A stretch of 5,098 bases of DNA from IMG/VR virus record IMGVR_UViG_3300029074_000008, positions 1 to 5,098 of that record, one strand, 5' to 3'. This stretch comes from a virus (Duplodnaviria > Heunggongvirae > Uroviricota > Caudoviricetes). Position numbers and translations under genes: made by a program. Below, piece by piece: positions 174 through 5,049 of this stretch. The stretch's first letter is position 1. Each line of letters begins with the position of its first letter. The notes under the pieces were generated by a model. It had not been told where the DNA came from, made no database searches, and saw nothing but the letters and a program-made list of their open reading frames with translations.

Positions 174-200
174 AAGCCGCCTCATGGCGGCTTTTTTATT
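174..200 (+). terminator. Rho-independent terminator for the upstream gene
   Basis: Perfect 8-bp stem AAGCCGCC (174-181) / GGCGGCTT (186-193) with 4-nt loop TCAT, running into a T-tract TTTTTT (192-197) then ATT. Seen directly in sequence. Confidence 0.85.
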
Positions 201-209
201 GCCTATGCG

Positions 210-226
210 ATTACCTTATGGGTAAT
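210..226. promoter_or_regulatory. Operator-like palindrome, copy 1 (ATTACC-N5-GGTAAT), just upstream of the -35
   Basis: ATTACC (210-215), spacer TTATG, GGTAAT (221-226): perfect 6-bp inverted arms. The same half-sites recur at 272-288. It could alternatively act as a weak AT-rich hairpin before the T-run 226-232. Confidence 0.5.
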
Positions 227-244
227 TTTTTTAACTCATATCTA

Positions 245-273
245 TTGACATCAAACCAGATACGCATAATTAT
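245..273 (+). promoter_or_regulatory. Sigma70-type promoter (pL-like) driving the downstream + strand operon
   Basis: Perfect -35 consensus TTGACA at 245-250; 17-bp spacer; -10 candidate AATTAT at 268-273 (4/6 match, A2 and T6 present). An alternative -10, CATAAT at 265-270, has only a 14-bp spacer. It lies immediately after a terminator and before the first SD/ATG of the gene string. Confidence 0.55.
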
Positions 274-288
274 TACCTCAACGGTAAC
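272..288. promoter_or_regulatory. Operator-like palindrome, copy 2 (ATTACC-N5-GGTAAC), overlapping the -10/+1 region
   Basis: ATTACC (272-277), spacer TCAAC, GGTAAC (283-288). Same half-sites as copy 1; centres about 62 bp apart, flanking the -35. Confidence 0.5.
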
Positions 289-306: not shown

Positions 307-456
307 ATGCAGTGGAAAATCATCAACGGTTGGTACTGCGTTACTGCATGCGGATTCATGAGCTGGAAGTTCCGCACCTTACAGGAAGGCATTAAGTGGG
401 CTTTCGTCAGCAAAGAAGCTCGCGATGTAGCCAACGATAACGAGATATGGGAGTAG
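307..456 (+). CDS. Small ORF (49 aa), first ORF after the promoter; hypothetical protein
   Basis: ATG 307 preceded by GAGGT (294-298) at 8-9 nt spacing; stop TAG 454-456. Translation MQWKIINGWYCVTACGFMSWKFRTLQEGIKWAFVSKEARDVANDNEIWE (Trp-rich, 2 Cys). Not in the ORF track (below the length cutoff). The track's antisense ORF 273..464 overlaps it; promoter and SD context favour the + ORF. Confidence 0.4.
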   Translation: MQWKIINGWYCVTACGFMSWKFRTLQEGIKWAFVSKEARDVANDNEIWE

Positions 457-464
457 GTTAGCAA

Positions 465-1499
465 ATGAGTGAATTATCAATCATCGAAATCACACCAGAC
501 ATGGCACCAAGAATTTACGTTGAAAAAGGGCTGGAAAAGTTTCTCGAGCAGATCCGTGAAGGTGTTAATGAAGTGCCTGACATTAGCACAGACAAAGGCA
601 GAAAGCGCATTGCATCTCTGGCTGCGAAGGTTTCAAGAAGTAAAACAGCGGTAGAAAAACCAGGACGTGATTATCTGAAACGCCTGAAAGAACAGCCGAA
701 AGTAGTTGAAGCAGAGTTACGACGCTTCGTAACCGAATGCGATCGGCTTCGTGATGAAGTACGCCGCCCACTCACCGAGTGGGAAAATGCTGAGAAATTA
801 CGCACTGAAGCACTGCAACAACGCCTGACAAATTTGCGAGCACTAGCTGACGTGATCGATCTCTCCGGAAACTACTTGCCATCATCTGATATTCAGGAAC
901 GAATTCAAGAGGCTAAATCAGTAGCACTTGATGAAAGTTGGCAGGAGTACGCAGCAGAAGCTGGAGTAGCCAAGGATTCAACCATCCAGAAACTGGAAGA
1001 ATCACTCGCAGTAGCTCAAAAACGCGAGCGTGAAGCCGCTGAGCTGGAGCGACTTCGCAAAGAAGCGGAGGAAAAAGCGCGCATTGAGCGAGAAGAGAAT
1101 ATCCGCCGGGAAGCTGCTGAACAGGCCAGGCTCGAAGCTGAACAAAAAGCGAAAGCTGAAATTGAGGCTGCGGCACGCCTGGCGGCGGAAGAAAAAGCAC
1201 GTGCAGAAGTAGCAGAACGTCAGCGAATTGAAGCAGAGCAGCGTGCACGACGCGAAAAAGAAGAAGCCGTTGCCGAGGAACGCCGACGCCAAGAGGCGGC
1301 AGAAAAAGCCCGCCTTGACGAACAGAAGCGTATCGCCGACGAAGAAGCGCGCCGAGCTGCAGATAAAGAGCATCGCCGTACCGTTAACCGCAGAGTAATC
1401 GCAGATCTGATAGCCCAAGGCATTCACGAAGAATTCGCGCAGAAAGCAATGTTGGCTATCGCTGGCGGCAAAGTGCAGGACGCGTATATCAAATATTGA
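465..1499 (+). CDS. Phage hypothetical protein (344 aa) with globular N- and C-terminal regions flanking a long ER/K-rich charged alpha-helical/coiled-coil segment
   Basis: Long ORF from the track; ATG 465 with AGGT 455-458 upstream. Residues about 185-300 are almost entirely E/A/R/K/Q (e.g. AEEKARIEREENIRREAAEQARLEAEQKAKAEIEAAARLAAEEKARAE...). Family not recognised with certainty. Confidence 0.85.
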   Translation: MSELSIIEITPDMAPRIYVEKGLEKFLEQIREGVNEVPDISTDKGRKRIASLAAKVSRSKTAVEKPGRDYLKRLKEQPKVVEAELRRFVTECDRLRDEVRRPLTEWENAEKLRTEALQQRLTNLRALADVIDLSGNYLPSSDIQERIQEAKSVALDESWQEYAAEAGVAKDSTIQKLEESLAVAQKREREAAELERLRKEAEEKARIEREENIRREAAEQARLEAEQKAKAEIEAAARLAAEEKARAEVAERQRIEAEQRARREKEEAVAEERRRQEAAEKARLDEQKRIADEEARRAADKEHRRTVNRRVIADLIAQGIHEEFAQKAMLAIAGGKVQDAYIKY

Positions 1500-1506
1500 G
1501 GTGGGT

Positions 1507-1806
1507 ATGAACGTTAATCAGCAGAAAAATCTTCAAAAAATCATGCTGGCATTCGACAAGGACTACCGTCTGTCAGAACAGCTATATGACCGACAAGTTG
1601 AACTGATTGAGAGTATCCGGCTTCATCAACTGGCATCAACTTTCGACGTTGTAACAGTTAAAGGCGTTCGCCAGGAAGTACTGGAGGCCGCTAAAGACAG
1701 CCCTGAGTTCGAAGAACTAATGGATGCCTACCGGCGCGAGGCAATGGCAATTATCGCCCGCTGGGATCTGGCTGATCAGCTTGATGGGCAGAGGGACGCG
1801 GCATGA
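1507..1806 (+). CDS. Small acidic hypothetical protein (99 aa), translationally coupled to the exonuclease gene
   Basis: ATG 1507 preceded by GAGGTGGG (1498-1505), which overlaps the upstream stop TGA 1497-1499; the track's GTG 1501 start is less likely. The stop TGA 1804-1806 overlaps the next start ATG 1803 (ATGA). By my hand count about 19 D/E versus 13 K/R. Confidence 0.8.
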   Translation: MNVNQQKNLQKIMLAFDKDYRLSEQLYDRQVELIESIRLHQLASTFDVVTVKGVRQEVLEAAKDSPEFEELMDAYRREAMAIIARWDLADQLDGQRDAA

Positions 1807-2624
1807 AACCGGGAATTTATTTCGACATCAGCAACGAAGACTACCACGCCGGTGACGGCGTGAGTAAGTCGCAACTGGACATGGTTGCCAAGAATCCGGC
1901 GCTTCTTAAATGGGTTCAGGCAGCACCAGAAGACGAAGAGAAAAAGTCTGCACTGGATATGGGAACCGCATTGCACTGTCTGCTTCTGGAGCCTGGAGAG
2001 TTCGACAAACGCTTCATTGTTTCACAGAAATTCGATCGTCGGACGAAACAAGGTAAAGCTGACGAAGAGGAATTTCTTCGTGATGTGGCGGATATGGGGA
2101 TTACGGTACTTGATGCCGAGCAGTGGCGGAAACTGGAGCTGATGCGTGATAGCGCAATGGCTCACCCGGCGGCACGCTGGATGCTGGAAGCACCTGGTTA
2201 CTGCGAAGCATCAATGTACTGGAACGATGAAGAGACGGGGGAGTTGTGCCGAATTCGTCCAGACAAATGGCTGAACGAGCACAACGTGATCGTCGACGTG
2301 AAAAAGGTTGCAGATATGGACCGTTTTGCACGCCACATCGAGGAATTCCGCTACCACGTGCAGGACGCAATGTACCGCGAAGGCGCAATGAGGGTTACTG
2401 GTCAGCCGCATGGTTTTTTCTTTCTTGCCGTGAGCGAAAGCATTGATTGTGGTCGGTATCCGGTACGCGTGTTCGAGCTGGATGCGCAGGATGTCGATGC
2501 CGGGCACGCTCTGTTCCGCCGGGATCTGAATACCTATCACGAATGCCGCATCAATGATGAATGGGGCGGTGTGGAAATCATTAAACGCCCTGAGTGGGCA
2601 CGCAAACAGGATATGTACATATGA
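1803..2624 (+). CDS. RecE-type (exonuclease VIII C-terminal-like) PD-(D/E)XK exonuclease, stand-alone nuclease domain (273 aa)
   Basis: ORF with SD GAGGGA (1791-1796) before ATG 1803. N-terminus MKPGIYFDISNEDYHAGDGVSKSQL resembles the start of the RecE-like PDDEXK nuclease domain as I remember it. PD...(D/E)XK-like motif in IRPDKWLNEHNVIVDVKKV (about 2255-2310). It sits immediately upstream of an annealing-protein gene. Confidence 0.75.
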   Translation: MKPGIYFDISNEDYHAGDGVSKSQLDMVAKNPALLKWVQAAPEDEEKKSALDMGTALHCLLLEPGEFDKRFIVSQKFDRRTKQGKADEEEFLRDVADMGITVLDAEQWRKLELMRDSAMAHPAARWMLEAPGYCEASMYWNDEETGELCRIRPDKWLNEHNVIVDVKKVADMDRFARHIEEFRYHVQDAMYREGAMRVTGQPHGFFFLAVSESIDCGRYPVRVFELDAQDVDAGHALFRRDLNTYHECRINDEWGGVEIIKRPEWARKQDMYI

Positions 2625-3562
2625 GCAACGACATCGCAAACATCAACGCACCAGTAGACACAGCAATCGCTGGAACTGCTGCAACTATTTTCAGCCCAGA
2701 CGGCTTGAACCAACTGATGAAATTCGCCGAGGTAATGGCGCAAAGCCGCGTAACGGTACCGGCGCACCTCGCCGGGAAACCAGCTGATTGCATGGCCGTG
2801 GCAATGCAGGCTGCGCAGTGGGGAATGAACCCGTTTGCCGTGGCTCAGAAAACCCATGTTGTGAACGGCACGCTAGGTTATGAAGCCCAATTAGTAAACG
2901 CAGTTATCTCAACGATGTCGCCAACAAAAGATCGCATCAACTACGAGTGGTTTGGGCCGTGGGAACGCGTGATCGGTAAGTTTGTTGAGAAAACATCCAA
3001 AAACGGCAATCCATATATCGCACCAGGCTGGACTCTAAAAGACGAAGAAGGCTGCGGTGTTCGCGTATGGGCAACCATGAAGGGCGAGGATCAACCTCGA
3101 GTGCTTGAGTTAATGCTGTCTCAAGCACAGGTAAGAAACTCCACACTTTGGGCCAGTGATCCGAAACAACAACTCGCATACCTTGCGACAAAACGCTGGT
3201 CTCGCCTGCACTGTCCTGACGTAATCATGGGCGTCTACACCCCAGACGAATTACAGGAAACGGCACCGCGCGTTGAGCGAGACATTACTCCGCAAACGAC
3301 AACTGCTGCGGGAATGAACAGTCTGATCAACGCTAAAACAGTGAAAAAGCCTGATGAGCAAACGCGTAAAGCGGATAGCCGTGATCCAGAAGAAATGCTG
3401 ATGGCCTTTACCAGCGCAGCGATGAATTACAGCACTGTCTCCGAACTGGATAAGGCTTACAAATACATTGCACAAAAACTTTCAGATGATGACGAACTGC
3501 TGGCAAAAGCCACCGACGTTTACAGCGTTCGTCGGGAAGAATTAAACGAAACATCTATGTAA
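2621..3562 (+). CDS. RecT/Red-beta-family single-strand annealing protein (313 aa)
   Basis: ATG 2621 overlaps the exonuclease stop (ATGA at 2621-2624); AGGA 2608-2611 upstream. Motif AMQAAQWGMNPFAVAQ (about 2816-2836) parallels lambda Bet ANQYGLNPWTKEIYAF (recalled from memory). Classic exonuclease-then-annealase gene order. The track's GTG 2594 start lacks an SD. Confidence 0.75.
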   Translation: MSNDIANINAPVDTAIAGTAATIFSPDGLNQLMKFAEVMAQSRVTVPAHLAGKPADCMAVAMQAAQWGMNPFAVAQKTHVVNGTLGYEAQLVNAVISTMSPTKDRINYEWFGPWERVIGKFVEKTSKNGNPYIAPGWTLKDEEGCGVRVWATMKGEDQPRVLELMLSQAQVRNSTLWASDPKQQLAYLATKRWSRLHCPDVIMGVYTPDELQETAPRVERDITPQTTTAAGMNSLINAKTVKKPDEQTRKADSRDPEEMLMAFTSAAMNYSTVSELDKAYKYIAQKLSDDDELLAKATDVYSVRREELNETSM

Positions 3563-4269: not shown

Positions 4270-4912
4270 GAAATACACACTAATCTATGCAGATCCACCC
4301 TGGGTATACCGGGACAAAGCCGCAGATGGTAATCGCGGTGCCAGTTTTAAATATCCGGTTATGAGTGTGATGGATATCTGCCGCCTTCCTGTGTGGGATT
4401 TGGCCGATGAAAACTGTCTGTTGGCCATGTGGTGGGTGCCAACACAACCACTCGAAGCGCTAAAAGTTGTTGAAGCCTGGGGATTCCGTCTGATGACCAT
4501 GAAGGGCTTCACGTGGATAAAATGTGGTAGTCGACAACCAGATAAACTGGTTATGGGTATGGGGCACATGACTCGCGCCAATAGTGAAGATTGCCTGTTT
4601 GCGGTAAAGGGAAAGCTACCTACGCGCATTAATGCAGGGATCGTTCAGTCATTTACCGCACCGCGGCTTGAGCATTCAAGAAAACCAGATATCGTTCGTG
4701 AAAAACTTGTGCAATTGTTAGGCGATGTTTCTCGCATTGAACTGTTCGCCCGCCAGACGTCTCATGGCTTCGATGTTTGGGGTAATCAGTGCGAAGACCC
4801 GGCAGTGCAACTACACCCTGGATACGCGTTGGATATTGGCGGATTAACAAATGCATTCAGCAATGCTCCGGTGTCACCAATAGACAACCAGGGGCGGGAG
4901 CGTGCAGCATGA
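4262..4912 (+). CDS. MT-A70-family N6-adenine DNA methyltransferase (216 aa), apparently orphan (no cognate nuclease in window)
   Basis: Motif IYADPPW (DPPW, catalytic motif IV; GAT at 4292-4294) near the N-terminus, and EHSRKPD near the C-terminal third. The ATG 4262 start is preferred over the track's GTG 4250. The stop TGA 4910-4912 overlaps the next ATG 4909. Confidence 0.85.
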
Positions 4913-5049
4913 ACCTATATCAACGCATCAATGGCGCTGACTGGTGCAATATCTTCGTCGTCGGCGATCTGCATGGGTGCTACACGCTGCTGATGAACGA
5001 ACTCGACAAAGTTTCATTCGACCCACTCAATTATTTACGACAAACATAA
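4909..5049 (+). pseudogene. Truncated lambda-type Ser/Thr protein phosphatase (metallophosphoesterase): only the N-terminal 46 codons
   Basis: [39 protein letters not shown] closely parallels the lambda PPase N-terminus (...[25 protein letters not shown]..., recalled) and includes the GDxHG metal-binding motif. Similarity stops after FDP (about 5025) and the frame ends at TAA 5047-5049. No continuation with the expected second motif (roughly ISVGDL-DRG) exists in any + frame of the remaining about 70 nt. Confidence 0.7.

What the first reader, a model, noticed from the sequence alone, without database searches (positions are those of the whole stretch)
465..1499. 344-aa protein with a roughly 110-residue ER/K-rich charged helix at the head of the recombination module
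Seen in sequence: residues about 185-300 (nt about 1020-1380) are a near-continuous run of E, A, R, K and Q with alternating charge, typical of a single stable alpha-helix or TolA-like spacer, between two ordinary-composition domains. This low-complexity stretch also generates the overlapping spurious ORFs on the opposite strand. Inference: a long rigid spacer separating two functional domains. Its function is unknown; the position (between the promoter-proximal ORF and the exonuclease gene) suggests a role in recombination, host takeover or anti-defence.
Basis: partly seen in the sequence, partly recalled or inferred. Interest (0 to 1): 0.45.

Follow-up and report, generated by a model that had tools for sequence, protein, structure and literature searches.

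The report
Optional tether protein heading phage recombination genes
This 344-residue prophage protein has two small conserved end domains joined by a stiff, highly charged helix of about 120 residues; it belongs to a very large, almost unstudied family (phage phi80 Agt/Mog) that sits at the head of phage recombination gene clusters, yet many close relatives of those phages lack it.

Summary
ORF 465-1499 encodes 344 aa. Residues about 186-305 are 88% E/A/R/K/Q, have no Pro or Gly, and show a strong i/i+4 salt-bridge pattern with no heptad seam, as in a single alpha-helix. The open antisense ORFs are a by-product of 9% T content.

The protein is 58% identical to phage phi80 gp39, annotated 'agt, anti-toxin for Gam / Mog'. 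Its N-domain defines a family of at least 4,900 clusters (50% identity) with no Pfam model. The family shares three parts: a conserved N-terminal helical domain, a variable-length ER/K spacer (median 121 aa) and a conserved C-terminal domain of about 40 aa that ends in an aromatic residue.

Across Proteobacteria and beyond, the gene lies next to RecT or Erf annealing proteins, exonucleases and SSB. It is nevertheless a clean presence/absence cassette: 76 of 80 near-identical neighbour modules lack it. phi80-type GamL also occurs without it in 16 of 33 loci.

The best reading is a facultative, non-enzymatic bivalent adaptor of phage recombination modules. Partners and mechanism remain inferred. 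I file it as a new member of a known but barely characterised kind, of moderate interest.

The parts
465..1499 (+). Gene for the 344-aa Agt/Mog-family protein (stop TGA 1497-1499)
   Evidence: ORF list. phrog_1376 match, E 1.3e-121. 58% identity to phi80 gp39 'agt', E 7e-95.
465..812 (+). Residues 1-116: conserved N-terminal core, with motifs VPDxxTxKGRxxIASxAxKVxxSK and LRDEVRxPLTxWExAExxR
   Evidence: Column conservation in 86 diverse members: K60 and P102 invariant; D39, T42, G45, R46, S51, G67, K75, D93, R100, E107 and R113 at least 90%. phmmer finds 4,937 clusters at E <= 1e-3. Helix 43-126 is amphipathic (z = 12.9).
813..1019 (+). Residues 117-185: variable sub-domain (loop, helix 140-152, 'D-x-S-W-x-E-F' helix)
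   Evidence: It is replaced in phi80 Agt and repeated four times in P0250. It does not co-vary with the type of downstream gene.
1020..1379 (+). Residues 186-305: ER/K/A-rich helical spacer of single-alpha-helix type, about 18 nm if fully helical
   Evidence: Composition and salt-bridge statistics. Predicted helix. Indels of 4-22 aa among close homologues lie only in residues about 244-290. Family spacer median 121 aa.
1194..1220 (+). Residues 244-252: predicted kink or hinge in the charged helix
   Evidence: pLDDT below 50 at 244-246 and 248-252; helices 157-245 and 249-317.
1380..1496 (+). Residues 306-344: conserved C-terminal mini-domain (two helices plus an extended tail ending in Tyr), consensus NxxALxALxxxGxxExxAKxxVxAIAxGxxxxVxIxY
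   Evidence: Alignment of 64 members: G23 and terminal Y at least 90%. AlphaFold2 pLDDT 94.8. Weak resemblance to RuvA domain III.
1507..1806 (+). Downstream 99/101-aa gene (phrog_856), 7 nt after the target's stop, in the slot that GamL occupies in phi80-type modules
   Evidence: Homologous to phrog_3486-type slot genes (hhalign 95.5%) but not detectably to Gam or GamL.
1803..2624 (+). Exonuclease consisting only of a RecE C-terminal nuclease domain
   Evidence: PF12684, E 9e-23. 48% identity to Rac RecE 595-862.
2621..3562 (+). RecT single-strand annealing protein
   Evidence: PF03837, E 2.6e-44. RefSeq start in JML285.
307..456 (+). 49-aa promoter-proximal ORF (phrog_898); left border of the cassette
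   Evidence: phrog_898, E 5e-38. It abuts the 101-aa gene directly in 71 of 80 target-less relatives. Junction alignment.
211..287 (+). Early-left promoter region: TTGACA-17-AATTAT at 245-273, with two TTACC-N5-GGTAA palindromes (211-225, 273-287)
   Evidence: Consensus scan. Sequence read directly. The repressor gene lies just upstream in JML285. Function was not tested.

Best explanation
The gene encodes a cytoplasmic, all-helical, non-enzymatic adaptor of the phi80 Agt/Mog family. It is expressed as the second gene of the prophage early-left operon.

Shown:
- A three-part build: a conserved N-terminal helical domain, a variable-length ER/K single-helix-type spacer of about 120 residues (roughly 18 nm), and a conserved C-terminal mini-domain of about 40 residues.
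- The family is huge and lies almost always beside phage recombination genes (RecT or Erf, exonuclease, SSB), whichever type these are.
- It is an optional cassette, since near-identical modules exist without it.

Inferred:
- The two end domains are separate binding modules, held apart on a semi-rigid tether.
- The N-domain surface is nearly invariant while the neighbouring phage proteins change. It therefore probably binds something invariant, either a host DNA-end or double-strand-break processing component (RecBCD is the leading candidate) or DNA itself.
- The net effect is to tune how the phage's recombination and anti-nuclease functions act on the host. This fits the phi80 annotation that the homologue relieves the toxicity of the Gam-like RecBCD inhibitor. 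It would not be a core recombinase component.
For: Identity:
- 58% identity, E 7e-95, to phi80 gp39. That gene is annotated 'agt: anti-toxin for Gam; Mog (modifier of Gam)', next to 'gamL: toxic without Mog', RecT-like and exo.
- Both fall in the same PHROG.

Architecture:
- AlphaFold2 pLDDT 88.5, all helical.
- Single-helix statistics.
- Spacer conserved in character but not in length or sequence across 113 cluster representatives.
- Indels confined to the spacer.
- C-terminal domain pLDDT 94.8.

Family size and lack of an enzymatic or known domain:
- 4,937 clusters.
- No Pfam hit in 86 members. Nothing in NCBIfam, PADLOC or PDB.

Synteny:
- RecT or Erf within 5 genes downstream in 30 of 39 non-redundant viral loci, and upstream in 3 more.
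- Pfam confirmation of Erf, RecT, YqaJ and SSB neighbours.
- Sak4-type neighbour in L003.
- 56 of 67 loci from diverse bacterial genomes have an annealing protein, exonuclease or SSB within 3 kb.

Not a core component:
- D3 erf+exo work in lambda without the D3 homologue (PMC3945230).
- The cassette is absent from 76 of 80 near-identical modules.
Against: - No partner has been shown. The mechanism rests on architecture, gene position and one database annotation whose source paper (Rotman et al. 2012, J Bacteriol 194:6802) could not be read.
- The antitoxin idea fits natural variation poorly. GamL at least 90% identical to phi80's lacks an upstream Agt-family gene in 16 of 33 loci. The window's own 101-aa neighbour lacks it in 76 of 80 loci. 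85 of 164 family loci have no Gam-slot gene at all.
- The variable sub-domain does not co-vary with the slot-gene type.
- AlphaFold2 puts a kink at 244-252 and pTM is only 0.55, so the global shape is uncertain.
- The start of an early operon is also a common landing site for unrelated accessory genes.
Confidence: 0.4

Rival explanations
1. It is a dedicated antidote. It binds the small protein encoded immediately downstream (GamL in phi80, phrog_856 here) and neutralises its toxicity, like an antitoxin in a two-gene pair.
For: - phi80 record notes: 'anti-toxin for Gam' and 'gamL toxic without Mog'.
- Tight coupling here, with 7 nt between the target's stop and the next start.
- 79 of 164 family loci have a GamL, phrog_856 or phrog_3486 gene just downstream.
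- The GamL family (phrog_1050) follows the target in at least 8 enterobacterial loci.
Against: - The supposed toxins occur freely without it: 76 of 80 phrog_856 loci and 16 of 33 close GamL loci.
- Half of the family has no such neighbour and is followed directly by Erf or RecT.
- phrog_856 shows no similarity to Gam.
- The variable sub-domain does not co-vary with the slot-gene type.
Confidence: 0.15
2. It is a recruiter of a host branch-migration or repair motor. The C-terminal domain mimics RuvA domain III and docks RuvB or another partner of UBA-like domains. The N-domain holds recombination intermediates, so host machinery is brought to, or kept from, phage recombination sites.
For: - A profile of 64 C-terminal domains finds only RuvA domain III at the top of PDB sequences (best E 0.018; E. 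coli, Thermus and Pseudomonas entries).
- Family consensus 'aaLvalGl' against RuvA 'AALVALGY'.
- Pfam RuvA_C hits in 4 of 64 members.
- RuvA domain III is rank 3 in Foldseek, with the highest probability in the list (0.57, TM 0.54).
Against: - All scores are sub-threshold: hhalign probability 33%, Foldseek E 2.3.
- The pattern is the generic UBA-like helix-Gly-helix.
- The third helix of RuvA domain III is replaced here by an extended tail.
Confidence: 0.12
3. It is itself a DNA-end or nuclease countermeasure. It would be a functional analogue of the MuGam-like, DUF2483, DUF1351 and Gp157 genes that occupy the same place just upstream of erf, sak4 or recT in phages of Firmicutes.
For: - Same position upstream of the annealing protein.
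- The Firmicutes survey argues that genes in that position have analogous function (PMC8093625).
- The window's module has none of the four recognised anti-RecBCD types listed in PMC12315714.
- Lactococcus phage r1t ORF9, upstream of RecT, has a similar layout and a weak profile match (probability 42%).
Against: - It co-occurs with recognised RecBCD inhibitors: GamL in phi80, Abc2 in Sf6.
- No fold or sequence similarity to Gam, MuGam/Ku or DUF1351.
- Net charge is near zero, so it is not an obvious DNA mimic.
Confidence: 0.15
4. It is an anti-defence or host-takeover accessory gene that merely travels with recombination genes. For example, it could shield the annealing protein or SSB from host immune sensors.
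For: - Clean presence/absence cassette between otherwise near-identical prophages.
- This allele is in only 35 of 5,426 complete E. coli genomes, while 644 carry parts of the surrounding region.
- Promoter-proximal position in the early operon.
Against: - No match in PADLOC, which holds defence systems rather than anti-defence genes, so this is a weak test.
- The tie to recombination modules holds across very distant hosts and several annealing-protein families. That is unusual for a free-roaming accessory gene.
Confidence: 0.15
5. It is not a functional protein feature. On this view it is a low-complexity artefact or a TolA-like envelope protein.
For: Some records call homologues 'TolA protein'. 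There is a weak NCBIfam TolA match, E 0.0024.
Against: - The TolA score is 17 against a cut-off of 213 and covers only the charged stretch.
- There is no membrane anchor in the sequence.
- Thousands of conserved homologues have conserved end domains.
Confidence: 0.02

Closest known systems
Phage phi80 gp39, Agt / Mog ('anti-toxin for Gam', 'modifier of Gam'), NC_021190
   Same: 58% identity over the full length. Same PHROG, same three-part build, and same place at the head of the annealing-protein/exonuclease pair in the early-left operon.
   Different: Residues 117-185 are replaced by a shorter unrelated segment in phi80, and the spacer is 11 aa longer there. The downstream gene is GamL in phi80 and an unrelated 101-aa protein here. 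The exonuclease is lambda-Exo type in phi80 and RecE-C type here.
ER/K single alpha-helix (SAH) domains (myosin VI/X and caldesmon type) and TolA domain II
   Same: Composition, dense i/i+4 E-to-K/R pairing, no hydrophobic seam, no Pro or Gly, and a spacer role between two domains.
   Different: There is no homology. It is richer in Ala (24%) than classical E/K/R single helices. A kink is predicted at 244-252. It has no membrane anchor or TolA domain III. Monomeric state was not measured.
RuvA domain III (Pfam RuvA_C; UBA-like fold that binds RuvB)
   Same: Helix, Gly loop, helix, with matching hydrophobic positions. It is the best PDB sequence-profile hit (E 0.018) and ranks 3 in the fold search.
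   Different: All scores are below significance. The third helix is replaced by an extended tail ending in an invariant aromatic residue.
Genes upstream of erf, sak4 or recT in Firmicutes phages: MuGam-like, DUF2483, DUF1351, Sipho_Gp157 (PMC8093625)
   Same: Same position relative to the annealing protein and SSB. Also facultative and of unknown mechanism.
   Different: No Pfam match to any of them in 86 members. The hosts are Gram-negative.
N-terminal 590 residues of Rac RecE
   Same: Both lie upstream of a RecE-type nuclease domain, which suggested a 'split RecE'.
   Different: No sequence or profile similarity. Rejected.
P22 Abc1 and Arf accessory recombination proteins
   Same: Non-essential helpers encoded inside a lambdoid recombination module, with unknown molecular function (PMC12315714).
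   Different: They are much smaller and show no similarity. This is a comparison of role only.

Membership tests
phi80 Agt/Mog family (phrog_1376) | Significant full-length sequence similarity to phi80 gp39 | tested here: met
   BLASTP 58% identity, E 7e-95. Both match phrog_1376 end to end.
phi80 Agt/Mog family (phrog_1376) | Located at the head of an annealing-protein/exonuclease module in an early operon | tested here: met
   Window gene order, phi80 order, and family-wide synteny.
phi80 Agt/Mog family (phrog_1376) | Immediately followed by a GamL-type RecBCD inhibitor | tested here: not met
   The downstream 101-aa protein is phrog_856, with no similarity to GamL or lambda Gam. Only the position is shared.
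phi80 Agt/Mog family (phrog_1376) | Relieves toxicity of the Gam-like protein | not testable with these tools
   This is known only from the phi80 record notes. The source paper is not held. Natural co-occurrence is not obligatory.
Single alpha-helix (ER/K) domain | At least about 70-80% E/K/R (plus A, Q), no helix breakers, over more than 30 residues | tested here: met
   186-305: E+R+K+D 59%, with A+Q 88%, and no P or G.
Single alpha-helix (ER/K) domain | Enrichment of i->i+4 opposite-charge pairs and absence of a heptad hydrophobic seam | tested here: met
   z = +5.9 for opposite pairs, z = -4.9 for like pairs, and z < 0.5 at periods 3.5-3.67.
Single alpha-helix (ER/K) domain | Stable monomeric helix in solution | not testable with these tools
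   Only a monomer AlphaFold2 model is available: helix with a kink at 244-252, pTM 0.55.
TolA (NF007065) | Score above the curated cut-off; N-terminal membrane anchor; C-terminal domain III | tested here: not met
   17 bits against a cut-off of 213, and only the charged stretch aligns. No hydrophobic anchor in the sequence.
RuvA domain III / UBA-like | Significant profile or fold match to RuvA_C | tested here: inconclusive
   hmmsearch against PDB E 0.018. Pfam RuvA_C in 4 of 64 members, best E 0.011. hhalign probability 33%. Foldseek E 2.3, TM 0.54.
RecE (exonuclease VIII) N-terminal region | Sequence or profile similarity to Rac RecE residues 1-590 | tested here: not met
   BLASTP E 0.86. 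hhalign probability 0.1%.
DUF1351 (PF07083) / Sipho_Gp157 (PF05565) | Match to the Pfam model | tested here: not met
   No Pfam family at E <= 0.01 in any of 86 members, and none at E <= 10 for the N-domain other than chance coiled-coil hits. A profile-profile test against these families was not possible.

The most novel reading that the evidence does not exclude
The Agt/Mog family may be an unrecognised, widespread fifth class of phage recombination-module component in Gram-negative hosts. On this reading it is a facultative molecular tether. Its invariant N-domain would grasp a conserved host double-strand-break repair factor or DNA. Its RuvA-domain-III-like C-domain would recruit a second host machine such as RuvB, at a distance set by an ER/K ruler of about 18 nm. 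Its presence or absence would then change how phage recombination engages the host, and it could be used to tame Gam toxicity in recombineering.
Probability: 0.2. Interest if true: 0.7.

Novelty: new member of a known kind. Interest (0 to 1): 0.45.

Why it matters
Phage recombination modules (Red, RecET, Erf) drive phage mosaicism and are the basis of recombineering. A 2025 survey of 325 lambdoid phages lists annealing proteins, nucleases, SSBs and four anti-RecBCD types as module components, and does not mention this family (PMC12315714).

This family has at least 4,900 clusters at 50% identity and no Pfam model. It is tied to such modules across Proteobacteria and beyond. It is therefore a sizeable blind spot.

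If it tempers the toxicity of RecBCD inhibitors, as the phi80 annotation says, it could improve recombineering plasmids. Natural pairs of prophages with and without the cassette offer a ready-made experiment. It is also a clear example of an ER/K single-helix-type spacer in a phage protein.

Tried and rejected
- 'Split RecE' (target plus 101-aa gene equal the missing RecE N-terminus): no similarity by BLASTP or hhalign.
- TolA homology: compositional only.
- Known domain or fold for the whole protein: Pfam, NCBIfam, PADLOC, PDB sequences and Foldseek against PDB were all negative. BFVD returned only uncharacterised phage proteins. The afdb50 library was unavailable.
- The 101-aa neighbour as a hidden Gam, GamL or Abc2: no Pfam hit, and hhalign probability 1% against a Gam/GamL alignment.
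- Partner-specific co-variation between the 117-185 sub-domain and the slot-gene type: none.
- Obligatory pairing of slot genes with the target: refuted.
- C-terminal domain in other architectures: the word-indexed search returned only 9 short fragments and was uninformative.
- DNA-level tandem repeats underlying the charged stretch: none.
- Lactococcus r1t ORF9 as a bridge to DUF1351: it has no Pfam hit and only a 42% hhalign probability.
- Reading Rotman et al. 2012 for the agt experiments: the paper is not held. Literature searches for 'modifier of Gam', agt and GamL gave nothing further.
Full report
**Setting.** The window is the early-left region of a lambdoid E. coli prophage. It is 98% identical to a prophage next to guaA in strain JML285 and to phage phiv142-3.
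- The end of the repressor gene and a terminator-like hairpin (174-193) come first.
- A promoter-like site follows at 245-273, with two TTACC-N5-GGTAA palindromes: one upstream of the -35 hexamer (211-225) and one starting at the last base of the -10 hexamer (273-287).
- The + strand then carries:
  - a 49-aa ORF (307-456, phrog_898);
  - the target (465-1499);
  - a 101-aa gene (phrog_856);
  - an exonuclease that is only the C-terminal nuclease domain of RecE (48% identical to Rac RecE 595-862);
  - RecT;
  - an AlpA/Xis-like protein, a PerC homologue and an MT-A70 methyltransferase.

**The observation.** It is correct.
- The ORF encodes 344 aa. Residues about 176-305 have E+A+R+K+Q >= 0.75 in every 20-residue window and contain no Pro or Gly.
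- For residues 186-305, opposite-charge i/i+4 pairs are twice the shuffled expectation (41 against 20.5 +/- 3.5, z = 5.9). Like-charge pairs are almost absent (3 against 19.9).
- There is no hydrophobic periodicity at 3.5-3.67 residues, whereas helix 43-126 shows z = 12.9 at 3.6. This is the signature of an ER/K single alpha-helix, not of a coiled coil.
- AlphaFold2 was run on an 86-sequence alignment (mean pLDDT 88.5, pTM 0.55). It predicts helices 43-126, 140-152, 157-245, 249-317 and 322-333, with low confidence only around 231-260.
- The overlapping ORFs on the opposite strand follow from composition. T is 9.4% of the stretch, and codon shuffles give the same near-absence of antisense stops.

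**What it is.** Pfam, NCBIfam, PADLOC, PDB sequence search and Foldseek against the PDB give nothing. PHROGs places it in phrog_1376, of unknown function.
- A translated search of phage genomes found 164 records: Pseudomonas 58, Vibrio 25, Escherichia 20 and others.
- Those records include Sf6 gene 33, HK544, mEp234, CUS-3, D3 and phi80.
- It lies directly upstream of 'gamL ... toxic without Mog', a RecT-like gene and exo.
- The paper behind that annotation could not be read. It therefore counts as a database statement, not as evidence I checked.

**The family.** The N-domain alone (residues 1-185) matches 4,937 clusters at 50% identity (2,701 at E <= 1e-10) among 1.84 billion representatives. 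None of 86 diverse members hits any Pfam model.
- Nearly all full-length members share three parts.
- Part 1 is an N-terminal core with almost invariant polar residues: D39, T42, G45, R46, S51, K60, G67, K75, D93, R100, P102, T104, E107 and R113.
- Part 2 is a variable sub-domain (117-185). It is replaced in phi80 and repeated four times in one 519-aa member.
- Part 3 is a spacer followed by a C-terminal domain.
  - The spacer is conserved in character but not in length. E/D/K/R/A/Q is 0.84 and P+G is 0. The median length is 121 aa, with a range of 22-167.
  - The C-terminal domain has about 40 residues and ends in an aromatic residue at the very C-terminus.
- Among close homologues every indel (4, 7, 11, 15 or 22 aa) lies in residues about 244-290.
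- A genome scan finds the family in Gamma-, Beta- and Alphaproteobacteria, in Planctomycetota, and in several metagenome-assembled genomes of other phyla.

**The C-terminal domain.** Modelled alone it is confident (pLDDT 94.8): two helices and an extended tail.
- A profile of 64 such domains finds RuvA domain III as the best PDB sequence match. Three E values lie between 0.018 and 0.023, and five weaker RuvA entries reach 0.91, from several species. LATS2, carnocyclin-A and other unrelated entries rank among them.
- Pfam RuvA_C is hit by 4 of 64 members.
- hhalign against E. coli RuvA gives only 33% probability.
- Foldseek finds nothing significant. RuvA domain III ranks third (E 2.3, TM 0.54).
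- I treat this as a weak lead to a UBA-like protein-binding module, not as a finding.

**Genomic context.** In 164 viral loci, collapsed to 41 groups at 80% identity, 39 have enough flank.
- 30 of these have a RecT or Erf gene within five genes downstream, and 3 more have one just upstream. YqaJ or RecE-C exonucleases and SSB are frequent. One locus has a Sak4-type gene two genes upstream.
- In 67 loci from diverse bacterial genomes, 56 have an annealing protein, exonuclease or SSB within 3 kb.
- In the enterobacterial branch a gene of about 100 aa sits between the target and the exonuclease.
  - It is either GamL-type (phrog_1050) or phrog_856/phrog_3486-type. The last two are related to each other (hhalign 95.5%) but not detectably to Gam.
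- In the Pseudomonas-type branch the target is followed directly by Erf or RecT, then YqaJ, then SSB.

**An optional cassette.** The reciprocal test was the most informative result.
- Of 80 viral loci holding the window's 101-aa gene at 97-100% identity, 76 have no target homologue upstream. In 71 of them the 49/50-aa ORF abuts the 101-aa gene directly.
- The junction alignment shows a clean, gene-sized indel.
- This allele is present in 35 of 5,426 complete E. coli genomes, whereas 644 genomes match parts of the window.
- GamL proteins at least 90% identical to phi80's lack an upstream Agt-family gene in 16 of 33 loci.
- The type of slot gene does not co-vary with the type of variable sub-domain.
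- D3 erf and exo suffice for recombination in lambda without the D3 homologue (PMC3945230).
- The protein is therefore dispensable for the core reaction and is not an obligatory antidote. It is nevertheless almost never found away from a recombination module.

**Mechanism.**
- Shown: the three-part, non-enzymatic, helical build; the single-helix-type spacer of variable length; the conserved ends; the tie to recombination modules of several annealing-protein families; and the facultative presence.
- Inferred: the ends are two binding modules on a semi-rigid tether of about 18 nm.
- The N-domain surface stays nearly invariant while the neighbouring phage proteins change family. Its ligand is therefore more likely a conserved host factor in DNA-end processing, or DNA itself, than a phage protein.
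- The phi80 annotation points to the RecBCD/Gam axis. I give this adaptor/modulator reading 0.4.
- The rivals are: a dedicated antidote to the neighbouring small protein; a RuvB-type recruiter; a DNA-end or nuclease countermeasure analogous to the MuGam/DUF1351/Gp157 genes found in the same position in Firmicutes phages (PMC8093625); and an anti-defence accessory gene. None is excluded.

**Novelty.** The protein is a new member of a family that has a name and one genetic annotation (phi80 Agt/Mog) but, in the literature I could search, no biochemical or structural description. A recent broad survey of lambdoid recombination modules does not list it (PMC12315714). The interest is moderate: a very large, uncharted family with a testable natural presence/absence polymorphism, but no demonstrated mechanism.

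Noticed in passing
window 1507-1806 (+): The 99/101-aa gene (phrog_856) occupies the slot held by the RecBCD inhibitor GamL in phi80-type modules. It is homologous to phrog_3486-type slot genes (hhalign 95.5%) and shows no similarity to Gam, GamL or Abc2. The module has no recognised anti-RecBCD gene, so this is a candidate for a new type.
   Followed up: partly
window 456-465 and 1497-1507; L350 3990-4010: The target gene is a clean cassette of about 1,040 bp. Target-less relatives read GATATGGGAG-GGCTGATA-ATGAACGTT. The window reads GATATGGGAG-TAGGTTAGCAA-[gene]-GGTGGGT-ATGAACGTT. The 49-aa ORF gains one codon (…EG*) when the cassette is absent.
   Followed up: yes
window 1803-2624 (+): The exonuclease is a stand-alone RecE C-terminal nuclease domain (273 aa). 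It lacks the roughly 590-residue N-terminal region of Rac RecE. Some related loci carry a 299-aa exonuclease of a different sequence cluster instead, paired with a phi80-type RecT.
   Followed up: partly
window 174-287: Terminator-like hairpin at 174-193 after the repressor gene. It is followed by a TTGACA-17-AATTAT promoter-like site (245-273) with two 15-bp palindromes TTACC-N5-GGTAA, one upstream of the -35 (211-225) and one abutting the -10 (273-287). These are probably the early-left promoter and its operators.
   Followed up: no
window 307-456 (+): A 49-aa Trp/Cys-containing ORF (phrog_898) is conserved as the first gene of the operon in 63 related loci, whether or not the target follows it. 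Its function is unknown.
   Followed up: partly
window residues 206-269 of the target (nt 1080-1271): Hydrophobic residues in the charged helix recur every 16 residues, as four units of the form R-[IL]-E-x5-x-x-E-[IV]… This gives a spectral peak at period 3.2 (z = 6.7). No DNA-level tandem repeat underlies it.
   Followed up: partly
protein P0250 (519 aa): One family member carries four tandem copies of the 127-185 sub-domain ('D-W-Q-E-F' helices) before a short spacer. This shows that the sub-domain is a repeatable unit.
   Followed up: no
window 4909-5049 (+): At the right end an ORF begins with a metallophosphatase motif (…VVGDLHGCY…). The closest E. coli prophage (JML285) has a DUF1382 gene and the integrase at the equivalent place, and its similarity stops at 4914. 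This marks a mosaic junction.
   Followed up: no
L171 4910-5743 (Lactococcus phage r1t ORF9): The gene just upstream of r1t RecT has a similar layout: an N-terminal '…EVKSKVPDI…' region, a charged Q/E/R/K helix and a small C-terminal domain. The profile match to the family is weak (hhalign probability 42%) and there is no Pfam hit. It may be a distant Gram-positive counterpart.
   Followed up: partly
L047 6887-8089: In one related viral contig the target homologue is 400 aa and is followed directly by the exonuclease, with no 100-aa gene between them. This may be a fusion or a frameshifted arrangement.
   Followed up: no
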